Source: an uncultured Candidatus Saccharibacteria bacterium (GTDB lineage Bacteria > Patescibacteriota > Minisyncoccia > Phycocordibacterales > WO2-35-19). Taken from it: a stretch of 56,332 bases of DNA. A program made the translations under genes and the position numbers. How positions within the stretch are numbered: the first letter of the stretch is position 1; each line of letters starts with the position of its first letter. The stretch covers positions 1 to 56,332 of the forward strand of contig CAYTTP010000003.1 in NCBI GenBank assembly GCA_964440955.1, written 5' to 3'. Under the pieces are notes generated by a model, which was not told the DNA's origin, searched no databases, and was given only the letters and a program-made list of their open reading frames with translations. Below, piece by piece: positions 674 through 55,077 of the stretch.

Positions 674-850
674 CAAAACAAGGAACAAAATGAGTAGCAT
701 TTTGCGACTATGTTTTTGCGAGAAAAGGAGAGATTTGAAGACCTTTTGAGCTAAAATTAATTTTAAGAAAATTTTAGCCAAAAGGTGTACTGAAACTGTA
801 AGTTTCAAATCCTCTCACTTCCGCAAAACAAGGAACAAAATGAGTAGCAT
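652..850 (+). repeat. 49-bp direct repeat (652-700 and 802-850) covering the tRNA-Ser 3' end through the ATG of the downstream gene, flanking a 101-bp insert
   Basis: ggttcaaatcctctcacttccgcaaaacaaggaacaaaatgagtagcat repeated with one mismatch. The insert carries the perfect hairpin gctaaaatt...aattttagc. Confidence 0.7.
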
Positions 851-1327: not shown

Positions 1328-1398
1328 GGGCCCATAGTTAAGTGGTATAACGCATCCATGGCATGGATGAGGCCGGAGTCCGATTCTCCGTGGGTCCA
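1328..1398 (+). tRNA. tRNA-Ala (anticodon GGC)
   Basis: Acceptor gggccca/tgggtcc with the G3:U70 alanine identity pair, anticodon arm catcc-atggcat-ggatg, T-arm cggag-tccgatt-ctccg. Confidence 0.8.
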
Positions 1399-1545
1399 CA
1401 AGCGTGAAGAAAATCTAAACTGCTTTAGATTTTTAGCTTGTGGAAGGCGCAGTGATGTTTTTGTTTGAGCGAAGCGAAAGGCAAAAACCACGAGCCGGGG
1501 TCGCGAGATTTTTCTGTCAAGAAAAATACTTGTGACCACAAGCGT
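1399..1545 (+). repeat. tRNA-associated repeat unit (family member, Ala locus)
   Basis: Begins agcgtgaagaaaatctaaaCTGCtttagatttttagcttgt (identical 42-mer also at 18239-18280). Contains gagcgaagcgaaag, ccggggtcgcgag, hairpin atttttct-gtca-agaaaaat, and ends acttgtgacc followed by a short copy of the tRNA 3' tail (ccacaagcgt). Confidence 0.6.
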
Positions 1546-18076: not shown

Positions 18077-18365
18077 CAATATTGTTTCGCAATATTGTTC
18101 GACCGAGCACGCAAACTGCTTTGCGTGCGTGTAGGAAGTCGAAAGCCGGAGCCATGTTGAGCGAAGCGAAACAGGCGAGGCGGGGTCGCAAGATTTTGCT
18201 AAGCAAAATACTTGTGACCGACTCCTACCGGGCGGACAAGCGTGAAGAAAATCTAAACTGCTTTAGATTTTTAGCTTGTCCGAGACGGAGCCATGTTTTT
18301 GTAGCAACAAAAACAGGCGAGTCAGGATCGTGGAAATTTTTGAGCGACGGCGATAAAATTATCCA
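18077..18365 (+). repeat. two tandem tRNA-associated repeat units (Lys locus) separated by a 19-bp copy of the tRNA-Lys 3' end
   Basis: Unit X 18077-18219 ends ...ggcggggtcgcaag-attttgc-taa-gcaaaat-acttgtgacc. Then gactcctaccgggcggaca at 18220-18238 is identical to tRNA positions 18058-18076. Unit Y starts with the 42-mer shared with 1403-1444. Both units contain caaaCTGCtttg-type hairpins. Confidence 0.65.
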
Positions 18366-18449
18366 TGATGACAATATTGCGAAGTGGTGATGATTTACGA
18401 AACTTAATATAAAACGAAGGGCACTCGATGTTCGGGTGCCCTTAGGAAT

Positions 18450-26832: not shown

Positions 26833-26904
26833 AAATGGAAAGGCGTTCACTAAAAGTGAACGTCGATATAAAGTACTTATAATTCCCTAGAACACCACTT
26901 ATGA

Positions 26905-27090
26905 GCACGTGAGAGAAAGATGAACGAACATTGGTGGTGTCCTAAGCCCGAAAGTGGCGAGGGTAAGGCCGCTTGAGATCCAAGTCGGACTACCAGCATA
27001 CCCCCAAGATCTTCTGGTTTACTCTAAAGAGAGTATTCCGCTCCATCGTGTGACGATGAAGGCTGTTTTTCGACGTCTCTCACAGGTCCA
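26905..27090 (+). ncRNA. candidate retron non-coding RNA (msr-msd-like) upstream of the RT
   Basis: 8-bp inverted repeats gtgagaga (26909-26916) and tctctcac (27076-27083) bracket roughly 160 nt of GC-rich structured sequence containing the hairpins acaccac/gtggtgt and catcg-tgtga-cgatg. Matches the a1/a2 retron architecture; not verified. Confidence 0.3.
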
Positions 27091-27135
27091 AGCCGGACTG
27101 TTTTGATTGTAGCATGTTTTTATATATAAGTTTAG

Positions 27136-28056
27136 TTGTATAAATCAAATAAAATAGGTTATCCTCTGTTCGGAGGCCTTGTGGATAAACCTGCATTTGA
27201 AAGGTATTTTCTGAGAGATGTAAATCATCAGAGTGGTAGGGTGAAAAATCGAGAAATTTTTGCTCCAAACGATTCAATGCGTGAGGTGCAAGAGGGTATA
27301 GTGGCCAAACTTCGGTCTTTGGAGATTGAGATGCCGAGCGCGACTGGTGGTGTCAGGAATGGTTCGCCAGTCAATAACGTCCTCAAACATTGGTCACCTT
27401 ACAATAAGAGTGCGAGATACTTTTTTCTGCTTGATCTAGCATCTGCTTACAAGAATGTCCTTGTGAGCGATATGTTAGTTGAACTGAAGAGGGTGTGGCC
27501 ACATGATTGCGACGAGAAGTTTGTTCAGAGTGTTATGAATCACTGCTTGATACCGGGTGAGGGTTTGGCAACTGGAGGTAACGCCTCGCCAGATATTTTC
27601 AACCTATGTATGGAGATTTCGATTGATCGGCAAATACGCTCGTATGCCGAATACAACGATCTCACCTACACTCGTTATCTCGATGATCTGACTTTCTCAT
27701 CTCCTTTTCCGATAGGTAAGAGGAAGAGGAATACGATCATCAAGATTCTCACTGAAGCTGGTTGTGTCGTTAACCATCAAAAGTCTCAGGTGCTTGATAT
27801 CGAAAAGCATCATGTGGAAATAAATGGTATCGGCTTGCGTCGTAGCGGACACTTCTTCATGCCTAGTCGGGTCTTGGATGAGTTAAAAAACTTGCTCTAT
27901 CGGGCAACTAGAGGGGAGTCCATTTCCGATTCTCTCATTCAAGGCAAGATGGGCGGGTTCATCTATCTTAGGAGAAAAGGCTTGCTTGCTCTGACCGAGA
28001 GAGAACGTAATATCCTTCGACGGTACGAGCAATATCTGCCGTTGCGCCGGGGTTAA
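27136..28056 (+). CDS. reverse transcriptase, retron-type (RT domains 1-7 with YTRYLDD)
   Basis: RT motifs REIFAPNDSMREVQEGI, SATGGVRNGSPVNNVLKH (NAxxH-like), FLLDLASAYKNV, GLATGGNASPDIFN (QGxxxSP-like), YTRYLDDLTF (retron-like YTRYADD), VEINGIGL (VTG-like). The likelier start is GTG at 27181 after GGAGG; the ORF track begins at TTG 27136. Confidence 0.75.
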   Translation: MYKSNKIGYPLFGGLVDKPAFERYFLRDVNHQSGRVKNREIFAPNDSMREVQEGIVAKLRSLEIEMPSATGGVRNGSPVNNVLKHWSPYNKSARYFFLLDLASAYKNVLVSDMLVELKRVWPHDCDEKFVQSVMNHCLIPGEGLATGGNASPDIFNLCMEISIDRQIRSYAEYNDLTYTRYLDDLTFSSPFPIGKRKRNTIIKILTEAGCVVNHQKSQVLDIEKHHVEINGIGLRRSGHFFMPSRVLDELKNLLYRATRGESISDSLIQGKMGGFIYLRRKGLLALTERERNILRRYEQYLPLRRG

Positions 28057-28130
28057 ATCCTCGGCGCTCTGTTTTTAATAGTGTGTAAAAATTTTGAAAT
28101 ATCTGGTATTGTGTGCGGAGGAGGTGAACT

Positions 28131-28535
28131 ATGTCCAGTATCTCGAATAGAGAAATGACATTTGTTGTAGCTGTTCTGTACTCTTTGCCCGAAAAGTGGC
28201 GAGGGGTTGGCCGTTCTTTCTCGTTTGAGGATGTGCAAGATAGGCTACATCTTGCTTGGCATAGACTCTATCAAGAAGGATTGCTTGGGGAGTTTGGTGA
28301 ATCGTTTTCTTTTGACGCTCTTTGTGGCTCAGACAGTCTTGGGCAAGCACTTCGCACAGCTGCGGTAGATGGGCTCATAAGGATCGGTGGCTCTGATATG
28401 GCTTATCATGTTGATGTCCTGAAGCCTGACCAAATTGATCGTATGTTAGAGTCGTGCGTAATAGACCGAAGTGCCGTGACTACTGCTGTCAAACGTCTCG
28501 AAGCTATTCTCGAAGAGAAACCCTCCCCGGCTTAG
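28131..28535 (+). CDS. hypothetical small acidic protein downstream of the RT (candidate retron accessory/effector)
   Basis: 134-aa ORF with strong GGAGGAGGTG ribosome-binding site, 75 nt after the RT stop; no recognisable family. Confidence 0.45.
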   Translation: MSSISNREMTFVVAVLYSLPEKWRGVGRSFSFEDVQDRLHLAWHRLYQEGLLGEFGESFSFDALCGSDSLGQALRTAAVDGLIRIGGSDMAYHVDVLKPDQIDRMLESCVIDRSAVTTAVKRLEAILEEKPSPA

Positions 28536-28681: not shown

Positions 28682-28872
28682 CAAAATAAAACCCAGCTTC
28701 TGCTGGTGTTTTATTTTGTGCGCCGGAAGTGCAGCTTTGTGTAGCAAAGCGTAGCACGGATTCGAAAGGCGGAAGAAATTTTTTAGCAAAAAAATTTCTG
28801 AGCCGGGGTCGCGAGCGATTTTGCTTGACTGAAGCAAAATCGACTTGTGACCGAATCCTGCCCGGCGCACCA
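28682..28872 (+). repeat. tRNA-associated repeat unit (Tyr locus) ending in a copy of the tRNA-Tyr 3' end with CCA
   Basis: Long hairpin gcgcacaaaataaaacccagc/gctggtgttttattttgtgcgc, then ...gagccggggtcgcgagcg-gattttgc..gcaaaatc-gacttgtgacc followed by cgaatcctgcccggcgcaCCA (28852-28872). The gene itself reads ...ggcgcaCAA. Confidence 0.65.
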
Positions 28873-29285
28873 CTTCGCTCTGTTATCACAGAGCTTCGCG
28901 GTGCAAGCACAAAAAGATCCCCAGAGATGGTGGTATTTTTGTTATAATTAAGCGAAGTGGTCCCGCGGAGCTAAACCCAGCAAAGCTTTAGCGAAGTTGG
29001 GTAGCGGAGTGGGGCACAAATAAAATTATATGAAAAAGACGCCTTGAGAGGCGTCTGGATGAGGGTGGGGAGTCAGGCTGCCGCAGGACGCGGATTATCC
29101 TATTCTCATAGGACAGACCGCTATTTGCCTATCTCTACCCACCCTCAAGCGGTGAGGATGAAGAGAGCTTCACGCAGGGCGCTTGCGCTGGCACCTGTGT
29201 GGGGTGGGTTGCTCAATCTCCATCCTCACGCATTTACTATTATAGCAAATGTTTGATTGCCTGTCAATAAATTTCAGTGGAAAGA

Positions 29286-34882: not shown

Positions 34883-35725
34883 ATGCAACAATACTGCTTT
34901 TTTAATGGCAAAATCGTACCAATAGAGGAGGCGAAAGTCTCTGTTTTGGACATTGGGCTTTTGCGAGGTTATGGTATTTATGATGGTATCCCAAGCTTCA
35001 ATGGTAAACCATTTCGTTTTGCTGATCATTGGAGCAGGTTTGTCGCTGGGGCACATACGCTCAATTTGAACATCCCGATCACTGAAGAGAAGGCAGAAAA
35101 AGTAGTGATTGAGTTGCTTGAAAAAAACGGAATGACTGAGAGAGCTAACGTGCGTTTTATTTTGACTGGTGGCGACACGATAAGTGGTATTGAATATGAT
35201 TTTGAAAAGCCTACATTCTACATAATCACTGAAAGATGGGAGAAGCTTCCAGAGGAAGTGTATAGCGAAGGTGCCAAACTTATCACCTACCGTCACGTAC
35301 GAGAGTTACCAGAATCAAAAACTATCAATTATATTCGCGCTGTCAATTTGCAAAATTTTAAAAAAGAGGAGAAGGCTCTCGAGATCCTGTATACCTACGA
35401 TGGCGAGGTGCTTGAGTGCGCGACTAGCAATGTTTTTCTTGTAAAGAACAAAAAAATCATCACTCCGGCCGAAAATGTTTTGAAGGGTATCACTCGCAGG
35501 GTTGTGCTCGAAATTGCTTCCGATACTTACGAAGTCGAGGAAAGGATAGTACATGAAAGTGAGCTCAAAGAGGCTGATGAGGTATTTATTACTTCCTCAT
35601 TTAAAGATATAGTCCCGATAGTCAAAATAGACGATATGGTGGTCGCAAATGGAGAGGTGGGAAGTGTCACTAAAGACATAATGTTTCGGTATAGACGAGT
35701 CATTCAAAACGTTCCCCTCGCTTAG
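34883..35725 (+). CDS. class IV aminotransferase (D-amino-acid / branched-chain aminotransferase family)
   Basis: 280 aa; fold-type IV PLP enzyme signatures (FNGKIVPIEEAKVSVLDIGLLRGYGIYD..., catalytic Lys region); sits in the mur cluster. Confidence 0.6.
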   Translation: MQQYCFFNGKIVPIEEAKVSVLDIGLLRGYGIYDGIPSFNGKPFRFADHWSRFVAGAHTLNLNIPITEEKAEKVVIELLEKNGMTERANVRFILTGGDTISGIEYDFEKPTFYIITERWEKLPEEVYSEGAKLITYRHVRELPESKTINYIRAVNLQNFKKEEKALEILYTYDGEVLECATSNVFLVKNKKIITPAENVLKGITRRVVLEIASDTYEVEERIVHESELKEADEVFITSSFKDIVPIVKIDDMVVANGEVGSVTKDIMFRYRRVIQNVPLA

Positions 35726-35896
35726 CACACATAATTTTCTGCTGAAAATTTGTTCTGCTCGGTGCACCTGCGCAAGGCACGCTCGGGGAAGTTTCTGAAT
35801 GGCTCGTCCCTCATTGCAAATAATTAGCTTTGTGTTATTATTGGCTCTGTCCTAAATGGTATCTTAATTTTCAATCTTTAATTCTAAATTCAAAAA

Positions 35897-40949: not shown

Positions 40950-41030
40950 GCCGGAGTGGCGGAATGGTAGACGCGCACGACTCAAAATCGTGTCTCGCAA
41001 GGGGTGGAGGTTCAAGTCCTCTCTCCGGCA
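40950..41030 (+). tRNA. tRNA-Leu (anticodon CAA)
   Basis: Acceptor gccggag/ctccggc, anticodon arm cacga-ctcaaaa-tcgtg, long variable arm, T-arm ggagg-ttcaagt-cctct, discriminator A; no encoded CCA. Confidence 0.8.
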
Positions 41031-41190
41031 CAGATTGAGCAAAGCGAAAGTGGTGTCGGAGAGGCGTAGCTTTTTGTAAAAAAGCGTTACGCGGACTTGA
41101 AACCCGATTGAGATTTTTTAGGAGTATCGCGAACTAAAAAACCAATTGGGGTACTGAGTCTGTAAGACTCAAGTCCTCTCTCCGGCACCA
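41031..41190 (+). repeat. tRNA-associated repeat unit (Leu-CAA locus, diverged) ending in a copy of the tRNA 3' end with CCA
   Basis: gagcaaagcgaaag...ctgtaagac followed by tcaagtcctctctccggcaCCA (41169-41190), copying tRNA positions 41012-41030; the gene continues ...ggcaCAG. Confidence 0.55.
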
Positions 41191-45933: not shown

Positions 45934-46398
45934 AATACGAAGTAACGAATTGATTGCGAATATATACGAATGTATCTAAGAATAAATGGAAAAGGCGGAA
46001 AATGCAAAATCGCACCTCAAACAGACCTCACCCTCGCTCCGCTCTCCTTACAGGAGCTGTACACCTTTCGCATTAGGAAATGCTCAAGGTCTTGCGAAGC
46101 TCCACGCATTCACTTCTCACCCTCTCCTAGACTTAGGAGAGGGAAAGCAAGAACAACAAACAAAAAAGGGCAAGCCCAGTCGCGTCTGACGCGGCTGGGC
46201 TTGGATTGAAAAAGTTTCAGTCCTCGTTTAGTGTCGTAGCTTATGACGAAGCTGGATAACAAACAAGAGTAAGATTGTGAGGAAGGCTAGGCCTATCCTA
46301 CCCATGCCGCTTTCGATAGACGGCAGAAGTAGGATGGAACCAAGCAGGGCCGTAACTGAAAGAGTTTTTAGCATGGAGGAACTCTGACAAATAGCATA

Positions 46399-54656: not shown

Positions 54657-54729
54657 TGGTTGCCTAAGGGGTGATGTTTCTGGTACAATGCTCTCGTTCT
54701 TTGAAATTCCAAAAATTAGATTTTTTTGC

Positions 54730-55061
54730 TCCGGGATAGCTCAGCGGTAGAGCGAGCGACTGTGTCGTGACGCAGCTTCCAAAAGAAATTTTGGTTGAAA
54801 AACGAGGTGAATTCGGGGGAACCCCAAGTGGGCAATCCCGAGCCAATCCTAAATTAAAGAAAGATATTGTTGTGTAAAAACTTTAATTAAGGCAGGTGTA
54901 GAGACTATTCCGAAAGGAAGTACTTACTCCGTATTTCGGAGTCGGGAAGCGCCTCGCTCCTAATAGCCAATTTGGTTAAAGGAGATGATATAGTCCATAC
55001 TTCTAGTAATAGAAGAGAATATGTAATCGCTTGGTCGTAGGTTCGATCCCTACTCCCGGAG
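54730..55061 (+). tRNA. tRNA-Asn (anticodon GTT) interrupted by a group I intron in the anticodon loop
   Basis: 5' exon 54730-54763: tccggga-ta-gctc-agcggta-gagc-g-agcga-ctgt. 3' exon 55024-55061: taa-tcgct-tggtc-gtagg-ttcgatc-cctac-tcccgga-g. U1:A72 and G73 fit Asn; the 5' splice site follows a U and the intron ends in G. Confidence 0.7.
54764..55023 (+). other. group I self-splicing intron (~260 nt) within tRNA-Asn
   Basis: Conserved core elements R-like GTAGAGACTA (about 54897), S-like GATATAGTCC (about 54988), P-like AATTCGGGGGAA; the internal guide GCAG can pair with the exon end CTGT (U-G at the splice site); no ORF inside. Confidence 0.6.
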
Positions 55062-55077
55062 CAAAGGAATTTAATAT

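What the first reader, a model, noticed from the sequence alone, without database searches (positions are those of the whole stretch)
41031..41190. Second case of a CCA-bearing displaced tRNA 3' copy (tRNA-Leu-CAA locus)
The gene ends ...ctccggcaCAG. About 140 bp downstream, after a diverged unit, lies tcaagtcctctctccggcaCCA. The unit contains gagcaaagcgaaag and ends ctgtaagac instead of cttgtgacc. This is the same pattern as the Tyr locus, at an independent tRNA. It strengthens the view that this is one mechanism rather than chance similarity.
Basis: seen in the sequence. Interest (0 to 1): 0.6.

Follow-up and report, generated by a model that had tools for sequence, protein, structure and literature searches.

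The report
Structured repeat element duplicating tRNA ends
The extra tRNA-Leu tail is the right-hand edge of a 140-base folded, non-coding insertion element, one of a large and apparently undescribed family that sits behind tRNA genes of tiny-genome (CPR) bacteria; its CCA ending is probably incidental.

Summary
tRNA-Leu(CAA) ends at A41030 followed by CAG, and an exact 20-nt copy of its 3' part lies at 41169-41188, followed by CA, so it reads CCA.

It is not a two-locus curiosity:
- At least 5 of the 10 ARAGORN-called tRNA genes in the window (Ser, Ala, Lys, Tyr, Leu-CAA) carry the same architecture.
- Two sequence patterns taken from these elements hit more than 118 species genomes (Patescibacteria, Elusimicrobia) and more than 120 metagenome contigs. 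The elements lie behind tRNAs of more than 30 anticodons.

Each element has four parts: a spacer hairpin, an inverted complement of the local tRNA 3' strand, a conserved two-hairpin core, and a direct copy of the tRNA from the T-loop (position 54-57) to the discriminator. The core shows strong compensatory covariation and an invariant G.U pair. No Rfam family matches, and no paper found by sequence string or keywords describes it.

CCA after the displaced copy occurs in about 15% of cases. That equals the 16-18% of all tRNA genes in these contigs that encode CCA, so it is not a signature of copying mature tRNA.

Best reading: a non-autonomous, tRNA-3'-end-targeting insertion element acting through a single-stranded intermediate. 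The enzyme is unknown.

The parts
40950..41030 (+). tRNA-Leu(CAA) gene. The T-loop is TTCAAGT at 41011-41017 and the discriminator is A41030. No CCA is encoded; the next bases are CAG.
   Evidence: ARAGORN; Rfam tRNA, 59.7 bits; sequence
41031..41050 (+). Spacer or left part of the element (CAGATTGAGCAAAGCGAAAG). It is conserved in the orthologous element of L005.
41051..41063 (+). Acceptor-side 'guide': TGGTGTCGGAGAG. It is the inverted complement of the tRNA acceptor 3' strand plus discriminator plus CCA, with one G.U-type change.
   Evidence: the repeat finder I1 (13 nt, 92% complementary to 41178-41190) and I4. In L005 it changes in step with the tRNA.
41064..41092 (+). Inserted hairpin H1 (GGCGTAGCTTTTTGTAAAAAAGCGTTACGC), shared with the Tyr unit (28733-28752)
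   Evidence: a compensatory change is seen in L005
41093..41101 (+). T-arm 'guide' GGACTTGAA. It is the complement of T-loop/T-stem positions 54-62. Its first six bases pair with the displaced copy (helix P1). Its last three (GAA) match the TTC that precedes the junction in the intact tRNA.
   Evidence: GAA is present in 97 of 98 type-2 elements, and positions 1-6 are 83-98% paired.
41102..41170 (+). Conserved type-2 core: ACC, then P2 (CCCGATTG..hairpin..CAATTGGG), then GGTACTG, then P3 (GAGTC-TGTAA-GACTC). It ends in C41170.
   Evidence: CM R1 hit 41090-41186, 90.4 bits. Covariation: 93% of cells paired, 15 of 22 pairs compensatory.
41171..41187 (+). Displaced direct copy of tRNA positions 57-73 (AAGTCCTCTCTCCGGCA). 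The exact repeat block as reported is 41169-41188.
41188..41190 (+). CCA following the displaced copy
   Evidence: Its frequency in the family is no higher than at ordinary tRNA gene ends.
675..850 (+). Type-2 element behind tRNA-Ser(CGA). The 47-nt direct repeat (654-700 and 804-850) runs 26 nt into the flank. No CCA.
   Evidence: R1 hit 728-822, 80 bits
1400..1547 (+). Type-1 element behind tRNA-Ala(GGC). Its junction is at the acceptor end, with only a 10-nt repeat CCACAAGCGT.
   Evidence: R2 hit 1436-1543, 53.7 bits
18078..18380 (+). Two tandem type-1 elements behind tRNA-Lys(CTT). The displaced copy lies at 18220-18239 and is followed by CAA, not CCA.
   Evidence: R2 hits 18131-18230 (66 bits) and 18270-18380 (17.5 bits)
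28683..28872 (+). Type-1 element behind tRNA-Tyr. The core ends ACC at 28850-28852, the copy of positions 57-73 lies at 28853-28869, and CCA is at 28870-28872.
   Evidence: R2 hit 28754-28863, 59.4 bits
46027..46102 (-). Orphan type-2-like core in the dprA-topA intergenic region, not next to a tRNA
   Evidence: R1, 30.8 bits, E = 2e-7; sequence

Best explanation
The displaced tRNA-Leu 3' copy is the right border of a roughly 140-nt non-coding, highly structured insertion element. It is one member ('type 2') of a large family of non-autonomous elements that live immediately downstream of, and co-oriented with, tRNA genes in Patescibacteria (CPR) and Elusimicrobia.

Shown anatomy, 5' to 3':
1. 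A tail or spacer that is often a terminator-like hairpin.
2. An inverted complement of the local tRNA 3' strand, with an acceptor part and a T-arm part.
3. A conserved core of two hairpins.
4. A junction that always falls after a C and before R57 of the T-loop, or at the acceptor end in a subclass.
5. A direct copy of the tRNA 3' part.

Inferred mechanism:
- The conserved core is the mobile module.
- It is joined by its 3' end to the tRNA gene at the universally conserved T-loop. It is positioned by base pairing between its 5' 'guide' and the target strand: 3 nt upstream and at least 6 nt downstream of the joint.
- The insertion leaves an intact tRNA gene upstream and a duplicate of tRNA positions about 57-73 downstream. 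Formally this is a target or att duplication, like attL and attR of tRNA-integrating islands.
- The invariant G.U pair, the G.U excess and the strict co-orientation indicate that the active form is single-stranded with the polarity of the tRNA. It would be an RNA co-transcribed with the tRNA, or the equivalent ssDNA folded so that guide plus copy mimic the target duplex.
- The catalyst is unknown and must act in trans.
- The CCA after the Leu and Tyr copies is most simply the ordinary tail of a tRNA gene end. It would be either the displaced original end or the end carried by the element, not a retro-copy of mature tRNA.
For: Recurrence:
- Five tRNAs in the window carry the arrangement.
- The type-1 pattern occurs in more than 118 species genomes, and 95 of 124 copies have a co-oriented tRNA less than 600 nt upstream. 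These cover many isotypes and also a tmRNA.
- The type-2 pattern occurs in more than 120 metagenome contigs, behind tRNAs of more than 30 anticodons.

Structure:
- Type 2: 93% of cells paired, 15 of 22 pairs compensatory, covariation score 0.71 against 0.22 for shuffles.
- Type 1, 116 sequences: 88.8% paired, 30 of 33 pairs compensatory, 0.52 against 0.15. The fifth pair of P3 is an invariant G.U, also in the 17 hits that lack the exact search pattern.
- G.U:A.C ratio in helices is 332:65 for type 1.
- Single-sequence folds give z = -7.6 for Leu and -9.6 for Tyr.

Junction and guide:
- The copies start at tRNA position 54-57.
- The guide ends in GAA in 97 of 98 type-2 copies. Guide-copy pairing averages 7.19 of 9, against 6.24 with shuffled partners (maximum 6.51 in 200 shuffles).
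- The guide changes together with the tRNA in the orthologous L005 element.

Insertion-like behaviour:
- Elements are present or absent at orthologous tRNA-Leu(CAA). The window and L005 have one; L003/L004 and L006 do not.
- Tandem arrays occur (Lys, L007, L014, L070).
- One element is nested in the P3 of another (L014:5562-5708).
- Orphan copies occur after ordinary terminators.
- The same core subtype, with the identical P3 ATTTTTCAGCAGAAAAAT, sits behind different tRNAs in different phyla.
- Displaced copies decay while the gene copies stay intact.

Not a known RNA: no Rfam hit.
Against: - No transposase, integrase or reverse transcriptase is consistently adjacent, so mobility is inferred from distribution only.
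- No allele pair from one population shows an empty and a filled site.
- Copies within this genome are diverged from each other, so there has been no recent burst.
- Which of the two tRNA ends is the original cannot be settled. The 10 nt after the Tyr gene copy (CAAAATAAAA) are shared with the empty site of L006. That favours the gene copy plus its tail being native. By contrast, the gene-like CCA frequency at displaced copies favours the displaced end being a former gene end.
- Outside the pairs fixed by the search pattern, the G.U excess is modest: about 130:65 for type 1 and 25:18 for type 2.
- Strong conservation of the core across phyla could also mean a host function.
Confidence: 0.55

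Rival explanations
1. A host-beneficial, co-transcribed tRNA-trailer RNA rather than a mobile element. In this reading the guide can pair either with the 3' strand of the nascent tRNA or with the downstream copy. This would form a three-part switch, or a tRNA-like minihelix: an acceptor-like stem, the discriminator and sometimes CCA. Such a structure could control 3' processing by RNase Z, RNase P or the CCA-adding enzyme. It could terminate transcription, or act as a decoy for enzymes or toxins that attack tRNA T-loops and acceptor ends.
For: - Orientation is strictly the same as the tRNA.
- Structure is strongly conserved, with covariation and an invariant G.U pair.
- The guide can pair with either copy (I1 against I4). 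Its extension mirrors the gene copy's own tail in 17 cases against 8.
- The folded RNA ends in an acceptor-like helix.
- The core is conserved across phyla.
- An orthologous element is kept in the window and in L005 at 80% ParB identity.
Against: - Close relatives do without it at the same tRNA.
- Only about half of the tRNAs carry one.
- Tandem, nested and orphan copies occur, as do copies after protein-gene terminators.
- Displaced copies are often truncated or mutated, so pairing with them is not maintained.
- Exact direct repeats that run into the flank look like insertion scars.
Confidence: 0.22
2. One reading: the displaced copy is a reverse-transcribed piece of mature, CCA-tailed tRNA (a tRNA-primed or tRNA-templated retro-event). 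A retron-type reverse transcriptase is present in the window.
For: - There is CCA after the Leu and Tyr copies while the genes, and their orthologues in L003, L005 and L006, lack CCA.
- The Leu guide begins TGG, which is complementary to CCA.
- Eight further type-2 cases follow this pattern.
- A retron-type RT ORF lies at 27136-28056, 540 nt upstream of tRNA-Tyr.
Against: - CCA is no more frequent after displaced copies (about 15%) than at any tRNA gene end in these contigs (16-18%).
- Reverse cases exist, with CCA at the gene and not at the copy: L103, L128, L153, L175, L196 and L232.
- Many copies continue into genomic flank.
- No RT was found in the 247 other loci held (about 1.65 Mb).
- The guide extension matches the gene tail more often than the copy tail.
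Confidence: 0.08
3. Scars of classical tyrosine-integrase islands or prophages: attL and attR left after internal deletion, or cis-mobilisable miniature derivatives moved as double-stranded DNA by a P4-type integrase.
For: - The direct repeat runs from the T-loop to the tRNA 3' end. From my knowledge of the literature, that is the sublocation and the repeat length (about 17-20 nt) typical of P4-like integrases.
- The gene copy stays intact and the displaced copy decays.
- Tandem arrays occur.
- Tails of both copies look like real tRNA gene ends.
Against: - Only 76-170 bp lie between the repeats, which is too short to circularise as duplex DNA.
- The same conserved core sits at more than 30 different tRNAs with locus-matched repeats.
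- Helices show covariation and an invariant G.U, which argues for a folded single strand rather than protein-binding duplex arms.
- No integrase is linked, and the single match among viral contigs (L007, in the pattern scan) has no tRNA gene in the 3.3-kb stretch retrieved. blastn against the phage and plasmid collections gave nothing.
Confidence: 0.07

Closest known systems
tRNA-gene-integrating genomic islands and prophages (tyrosine integrases with T-loop or 3'-end sublocations, for example the P4 family)
   Same: Insertion occurs at a tRNA gene 3' end. An intact gene is kept upstream. A displaced direct repeat runs from the T-loop to the 3' end. Tandem accretion is possible.
   Different: The element is 76-170 nt with no genes. 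It carries an inverted complement of the target and a conserved folded core. The same core is used at more than 30 tRNAs. No integrase is linked.
REP/REPIN and MITE-type small repeats (RAYT- or transposase-mobilised)
   Same: They are short, non-coding, hairpin-forming, multi-copy and intergenic. They often lie next to terminators. Like REPs, they show strand-asymmetric G.U/G.T pairs.
   Different: There are no terminal inverted repeats of the element's own sequence and no fixed short target duplication. Target-specific sequence is built into each copy. The junction is precise at one end only. Y1 transposase genes are seen in only 4 of 248 loci.
Folded single-strand recombination substrates (integron attC sites, CTX-phi attP(+))
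   Same: An inverted pair of segments can fold so that a single strand mimics the duplex target. Structure rather than sequence is conserved in the hairpins. The model gives the observed order: gene copy, spacer, inverted copy, core, displaced copy.
   Different: The target is a tRNA gene, not attI or dif. No IntI or Xer-type partner has been identified. The resemblance is purely formal.
Guide-bearing mobile RNAs (group I intron IGS with P1/P10, group II intron EBS/IBS including class C introns behind terminators, IS110 bridge RNAs)
   Same: A 5' segment is complementary to both sides of the insertion point. Its polarity is that of a group I internal guide sequence. The 3' junction is precise. 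The location is right after terminator hairpins.
   Different: The core is only about 65 nt. There are no Rfam intron, ribozyme or bridge-RNA matches. The 5' end of the element is not joined at the target site. No IEP or recombinase gene is present.
tRNA-like RNAs and functional tRNA trailers (YrlA/Y-RNA-like, mascRNA, 3'ETS-leuZ sponge)
   Same: It is co-transcribed with, or mimics, a tRNA. The predicted terminal helix resembles an acceptor stem with a discriminator and sometimes CCA.
   Different: It reuses the exact 3' strand of its neighbouring tRNA, is polymorphic between relatives and is multi-copy.

Membership tests
Any described RNA family (Rfam 15: ribozymes, introns, riboswitches, sRNAs) | A match to the family covariance model at or near its gathering score | tested here: not met
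   In the whole window only tRNAs and one group I intron pass gathering. In E-value mode on the Leu and Tyr units, only hairpin-type chance hits far below gathering appear.
Tyrosine-integrase integrative element (attL/attR) | Direct repeat of the tRNA 3' part flanking the insert, with the gene reconstituted | tested here: met
   Exact 20-nt repeat, intact tRNA upstream
Tyrosine-integrase integrative element (attL/attR) | An integrase gene within or next to the element, or a full-length relative carrying one | tested here: not met
   The insert is 140 nt. The flanking genes are miaA and parB. The one viral-contig match (L007) has no tRNA in the 3.3-kb stretch retrieved; its genes were not examined. 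There is no phage or plasmid hit.
MITE | Terminal inverted repeats of element sequence and a short target-site duplication of fixed length | tested here: not met
   The ends are a variable spacer on the left and the conserved ...GTGACC or a P3 hairpin on the right. Repeat length varies from 4 to more than 80 nt.
REP/REPIN with RAYT | A conserved palindrome with a 5' GTAG-type tetranucleotide and a Y1 (RAYT) gene in the genome | tested here: inconclusive
   Y1_Tnp genes occur in L003/L004, L155 and L195 only. Whole genomes could not be searched.
Group I or group II intron | Catalytic core (P3-P9, or domains I-VI with domain V) and clean exon junctions on both sides | tested here: not met
   There is no Rfam intron hit on the units, although the same scan finds a true group I intron at 54754-55016. 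The 5' end of the element is not at the target site.
Retro-copy of mature tRNA (tRNA-primed retroelement or SINE-like) | Post-transcriptional CCA present at copies more often than in genes, and copies that never extend into the genomic flank | tested here: not met
   CCA occurs at about 15% of copies against 16-18% of gene ends. Flank-containing repeats of 13-80 nt are seen in at least 10 loci.
Retro-copy of mature tRNA (tRNA-primed retroelement or SINE-like) | A reverse transcriptase associated with the elements | tested here: not met
   One retron-type RT lies near tRNA-Tyr in the window. None is found in the 247 other loci held (about 1.65 Mb).
cis-regulatory leader of parB | Conserved upstream of parB in relatives | tested here: not met
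   L003, L006 and L127 parB upstream regions lack it. The element follows the tRNA, not parB (L005).
Structured functional RNA or ssDNA of the tRNA-sense strand | Helices supported by compensatory changes, and strand-specific wobble pairs | tested here: met
   covariation; G.U:A.C ratio of 332:65; the fifth pair of P3 is an invariant G.U

The most novel reading that the evidence does not exclude
The elements are a new class of self-guided mobile RNA, or single-strand DNA. A roughly 65-nt two-hairpin core would use a 5' sequence complementary to the universally conserved tRNA T-loop or acceptor end to attach its own 3' end at C56|R57. It would copy target sequence into itself at each hop, possibly exploiting host tRNA-processing or repair enzymes. 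This would be a bacterial counterpart of SINE- or intron-like parasites of tRNA genes, with no element-encoded protein.
Probability: 0.3. Interest if true: 0.9.

Novelty: new variant of a known kind. Interest (0 to 1): 0.72.

Why it matters
If the reading holds, about half of the tRNA genes sampled here in many CPR and Elusimicrobia genomes are followed by a previously uncatalogued structured element. Each element embeds a guide to the tRNA's own 3' end.

This matters in four ways:
- Annotation: these are hundreds of conserved non-coding structures absent from Rfam. They also coincide with contig ends in the three Logan assemblies of this locus.
- tRNA biology in minimal genomes: the trailers can pair with the tRNA 3' strand or mimic an acceptor end.
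- Mobile-element biology: it would be a protein-less element with a precise T-loop junction and target-matched sequence.
- Tool building: it may be a compact, possibly programmable nucleic-acid-guided joining reaction.

It also corrects an attractive but unsupported inference, that CCA marks reverse transcription of mature tRNA.

Tried and rejected
- Known RNA families and small ribozymes. The Rfam gathering scan of the window and the E-value scans of both units gave nothing. By eye, the hammerhead core (CUGANGA/GAAA/NUH) does not fit the junction strands, and neither do the hairpin-ribozyme or HDV layouts.
- parB leader: rejected, since it is absent upstream of parB in L003, L006 and L127.
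- Phage or plasmid origin. blastn against 50,697 phage and 72,556 plasmid records gave no hit. Viral-contig scans gave one contig for type 1 (L007), with no tRNA gene in the stretch retrieved, and none for the Leu/Tyr hairpin pattern.
- Linkage to the window's retron-type RT or to Y1 transposases: tblastn over 248 loci (1.7 Mb) found none or only a few.
- Literature. Searches for the conserved sequence strings and four keyword searches found no description. This is absence in open-access text only.
- A regex-anchored measurement of guide pairing for type 1 failed because of anchor ambiguity. I replaced it with model-based alignments.
- Deciding which tRNA end is native, by comparing the Tyr locus with the empty site in L006: only 10 nt of shared tail were found, which is suggestive but not decisive.
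- Closer relatives of the Leu locus gave no empty allele. L126 is identical to the window, and L127 (81% ParB) has the tRNA inverted.

Full report
**1. The observation**

tRNA-Leu(CAA) is called at 40950-41031 by ARAGORN and at 40950-41030 by Rfam. The discriminator is A41030 and the next bases are CAG. The repeat finder reports an exact 20-nt direct repeat, TCAAGTCCTCTCTCCGGCAC, at 41012-41031 and 41169-41188. The second copy is followed by CA, so it reads GGCA-CCA. Three independent assemblies carry the identical sequence. By my arithmetic, chance expectation for such a repeat is about 1e-7.

**2.

- The unit contains an inverted complement of the same tRNA end, in two pieces. TGGTGTCGGAGAG (41051-41063) is complementary to CTCTCCGGCACCA. 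GGACTTGAA (41093-41101) is complementary to the T-loop/T-stem TTCAAGTCC. A hairpin that is also present in the Tyr unit separates the two pieces.
- As RNA, 41049-41190 folds into a rod closed by guide:copy pairing: -64.5 kcal/mol, z = -7.6. The Tyr unit gives z = -9.6.
- The same architecture follows tRNA-Ser(CGA), tRNA-Lys(CTT) (two tandem units) and tRNA-Ala(GGC) in this window. Their displaced copies end CAA, not CCA. The Ser repeat is 47 nt long and includes 26 nt of flank.

**3. Two parallel element types**

- Type 2 (Leu, Ser): guide+GAA, then (A/G)CC, then P2 (CGAUUG...CAAUUG), then GGGGUACUG, then P3 (5 bp, loop UGUAA), then the copy.
- Type 1 (Tyr, Lys, Ala): guide+GAA, then AG, then P2 (GCC-G-GA...GA-GGC, a tandem G.A internal loop), then GG, then P3 (GGUCGCGAG...ACUUGUGACC), then the copy. 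The smallest type-1 elements are about 76 nt.
- A covariance model built from 12 type-2 units scores Leu at 90 bits and Ser at 80 bits. It finds an orphan copy at 46027-46102 on the minus strand (E = 2e-7). It also aligns end to end to the type-1 Tyr unit (E = 0.0045), so the types are related.
- The type-1 model finds Lys, Tyr and Ala, plus weaker copies at 18270-18380, 35712-35788 (minus strand) and 29134-29214.

**4. Distribution**

They include Saccharibacteria, Paceibacterota, Nomurabacteria, Berkelbacteria, Microgenomates, Adlerbacteria, Elusimicrobia and a few others.
- 95 of 124 matches have a co-oriented tRNA within 600 nt upstream, usually 60-160 nt away. Many isotypes are represented, and one match follows a tmRNA.
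- A type-2 pattern hit more than 120 metagenome contigs, behind tRNAs of more than 30 anticodons.
- Nothing matches in Rfam, in the phage or plasmid collections, or in open-access text searched by sequence strings or keywords.
- The source organism is a Paceibacterota-type CPR bacterium.

**5. Structure is under constraint**

- Type 2 (12 sequences): 93% of cells paired, 15 of 22 pairs with compensatory changes, covariation score 0.71 against 0.22 for shuffles and at most 0.27 for slid partners.
- Type 1 (116 sequences): 88.8% paired, 30 of 33 pairs compensatory, 0.52 against 0.15.
- The fifth pair of P3 is G.U in all 113 scored sequences. This includes the 17 hits that lack the exact search pattern.
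- G.U pairs outnumber A.C 332:65 in type 1. About 200 of these G.U pairs are imposed by the search pattern. The ratio is 25:18 in type 2.
- Together with strict co-orientation, this points to a folded single strand of tRNA polarity.

**6. The junction and the guide**

- The displaced copy begins at tRNA position 54-57 and, when complete, runs to the discriminator. The element always ends in C and the copy starts with R57. A subclass instead joins at the acceptor end (window Ala, L013, L019, L024, L108 and others).
- In 97 of 98 type-2 elements the guide ends in GAA. This is the complement of the TTC that precedes the joint in an intact T-loop.
- The six guide bases before the GAA pair with the copy at 83-98%.
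- Overall pairing is 7.19 of 9, against 6.24 for shuffled partners (maximum 6.51 in 200 shuffles).
- So the guide spans the joint: 3 nt upstream and at least 6 nt downstream.
- In 51 of 93 full-copy elements there is also an acceptor-side guide. Its extension mirrors the tail of the gene copy (17 cases) more often than the tail of the displaced copy (8 cases), with 16 ties.

**7. Insertion-like behaviour**

- At the orthologous tRNA-Leu(CAA), L005 has an orthologous element of visibly high similarity (by eye; not quantified). It shows compensatory changes, and its guide tracks the changed tRNA sequence. L003/L004 and L006 have none.
- Elements occur in tandem (Lys, L007, L014, L070), nested in one another (L014:5562-5708), after ordinary terminators of protein genes (L039, L096) and at tRNA 5' regions (L005, L022, L080, L092).
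- The same core subtype is found behind different tRNAs in different phyla.
- Displaced copies are frequently truncated or mutated, whereas gene copies are intact.
- No protein is consistently linked.

**8. The CCA question**

- Among full-length copies whose gene lacks CCA, the copy has CCA in 2-3 of about 34 type-1 cases and 9-10 of about 45 type-2 cases. Pooled, this is about 15%.
- In the same contigs, 15.9% of tRNA genes with an element and 18.0% of those without encode CCA. In both groups 65-68% have CA after the discriminator.
- Reverse cases exist, for example L232, a tRNA-Leu(CAA) with CCA at the gene and CAG at the copy.
- CCA is therefore not enriched at displaced copies relative to real gene ends.
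- It is, however, about ten times more frequent than in random sequence. This suggests that the displaced copy plus its tail is itself a former tRNA gene end.
- Repeats that extend 13-80 nt into the flank exclude mature tRNA as the general source.
- A retron-type RT lies 540 nt upstream of tRNA-Tyr but is not found near other elements.

**9. Mechanism**

Shown:
- the anatomy;
- the conserved fold;
- the precise right junction;
- the target-matched guide;
- polymorphism between relatives.

Inferred:
- The core is a non-autonomous mobile module. Its 3' end is joined to the tRNA gene at the T-loop under guidance of base pairing.
- The process leaves an intact gene and a displaced duplicate.

Two sub-models fit the order of parts:
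- (a) Campbell-type strand exchange between the tRNA gene and a folded single-stranded circle, in which guide plus a tRNA 3' segment mimic the target duplex. This is formally like integron attC or CTX-phi.
- (b) A staggered-cut or target-primed insertion, with the first nick at C56|R57 and a variable second nick. This would give duplications of variable length, with part of the left side templated from the target.

The evidence is divided. For (a): the gene-like tails of both copies and the guide mirroring the gene copy's tail. For (b): the tail shared with the empty L006 site and the flank-containing repeats. I cannot discriminate between them, and the catalyst is unknown.

**10. Rivals**

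- A purely host-functional tRNA trailer RNA (a switch, a processing signal or a decoy) explains the conservation and co-orientation. It does not explain the orphans, nesting, tandem arrays, decay of copies or absence in relatives.
- Classical integrase scars explain the repeat. They do not explain the size, the fold or the use of one core at more than 30 tRNAs.
- Retro-copying of mature tRNA fails the CCA frequency test.

**11. Verdict**

The finding is real. It is the visible tip of a widespread, apparently uncatalogued family of structured, guide-bearing elements that duplicate tRNA 3' ends. The emphasis on CCA is not.

Noticed in passing
window 26840-28535 (+): A retron-type reverse transcriptase ORF lies at 27136-28056 (306 aa). 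It hits Pfam RVT_1 at 1e-14 and PADLOC retron RT models at up to 1.7e-23. The NCBIfam retron_St85_RT hit (1e-21) is below its cutoff. It is preceded by about 300 nt of non-coding sequence (a candidate msr/msd) and followed by a 134-aa ORF with no family. The block is inserted between clpB and tRNA-Tyr, which are adjacent in relatives L003 and L006.
   Followed up: partly
window 54728-55063 (+): A tRNA gene is interrupted in the anticodon loop by a group I intron (Rfam Intron_gpI 54754-55016, 78 bits). ARAGORN does not call this tRNA, and no element follows it.
   Followed up: partly
window 40950-41190 compared with L003, L005, L006, L127: The tRNA-Leu(CAA) gene, here with its element, is co-oriented with parB in the window. 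In all four relatives it lies on the opposite strand, so the block has been inverted in this lineage.
   Followed up: partly
window 1397-1440 and 18236-18279: A 44-nt module, ACAAGCGTGAAGAAAATCTAAACTGCTTTAGATTTTTAGCTTGT, is identical behind tRNA-Ala and in Lys unit 2, although the cores that follow differ. Small hairpins with the loop AAACTGCTTT recur inside many elements in other genomes. They may be a separate, smaller repeat.
   Followed up: no
L005 7160-7290 (-); L022, L080, L092: Related units duplicate the 5' end of a tRNA plus its upstream flank, or sit at the D-loop region with the junction ...GTGACC|AGCGGT. The family is therefore not restricted to 3' ends.
   Followed up: no
all loci: In these CPR and Elusimicrobia contigs, 65-68% of tRNA genes have CA directly after the discriminator (CAA, CAG, CAT or CAC) and only 16-18% encode CCA. 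This holds whether or not an element follows the gene.
   Followed up: partly
window 46027-46102 (-) and 35712-35788 (-): Orphan element-like cores lie in the dprA-topA and post-aminotransferase intergenic regions. Each has a guide-like segment complementary to its own flank rather than to a tRNA.
   Followed up: partly
L001, L002, L126 (Logan contigs): Three independent assemblies of this organism all break inside tRNA-Leu(CAA), just upstream of the element. This is consistent with repeat-induced or rearrangement-induced assembly ends.
   Followed up: no
L003 12433-13086, L004, L155, L195: Y1 (IS200/IS605 or RAYT-type) transposase genes occur in a few element-bearing loci. The numbers are too small to link them to the elements.
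   Followed up: partly
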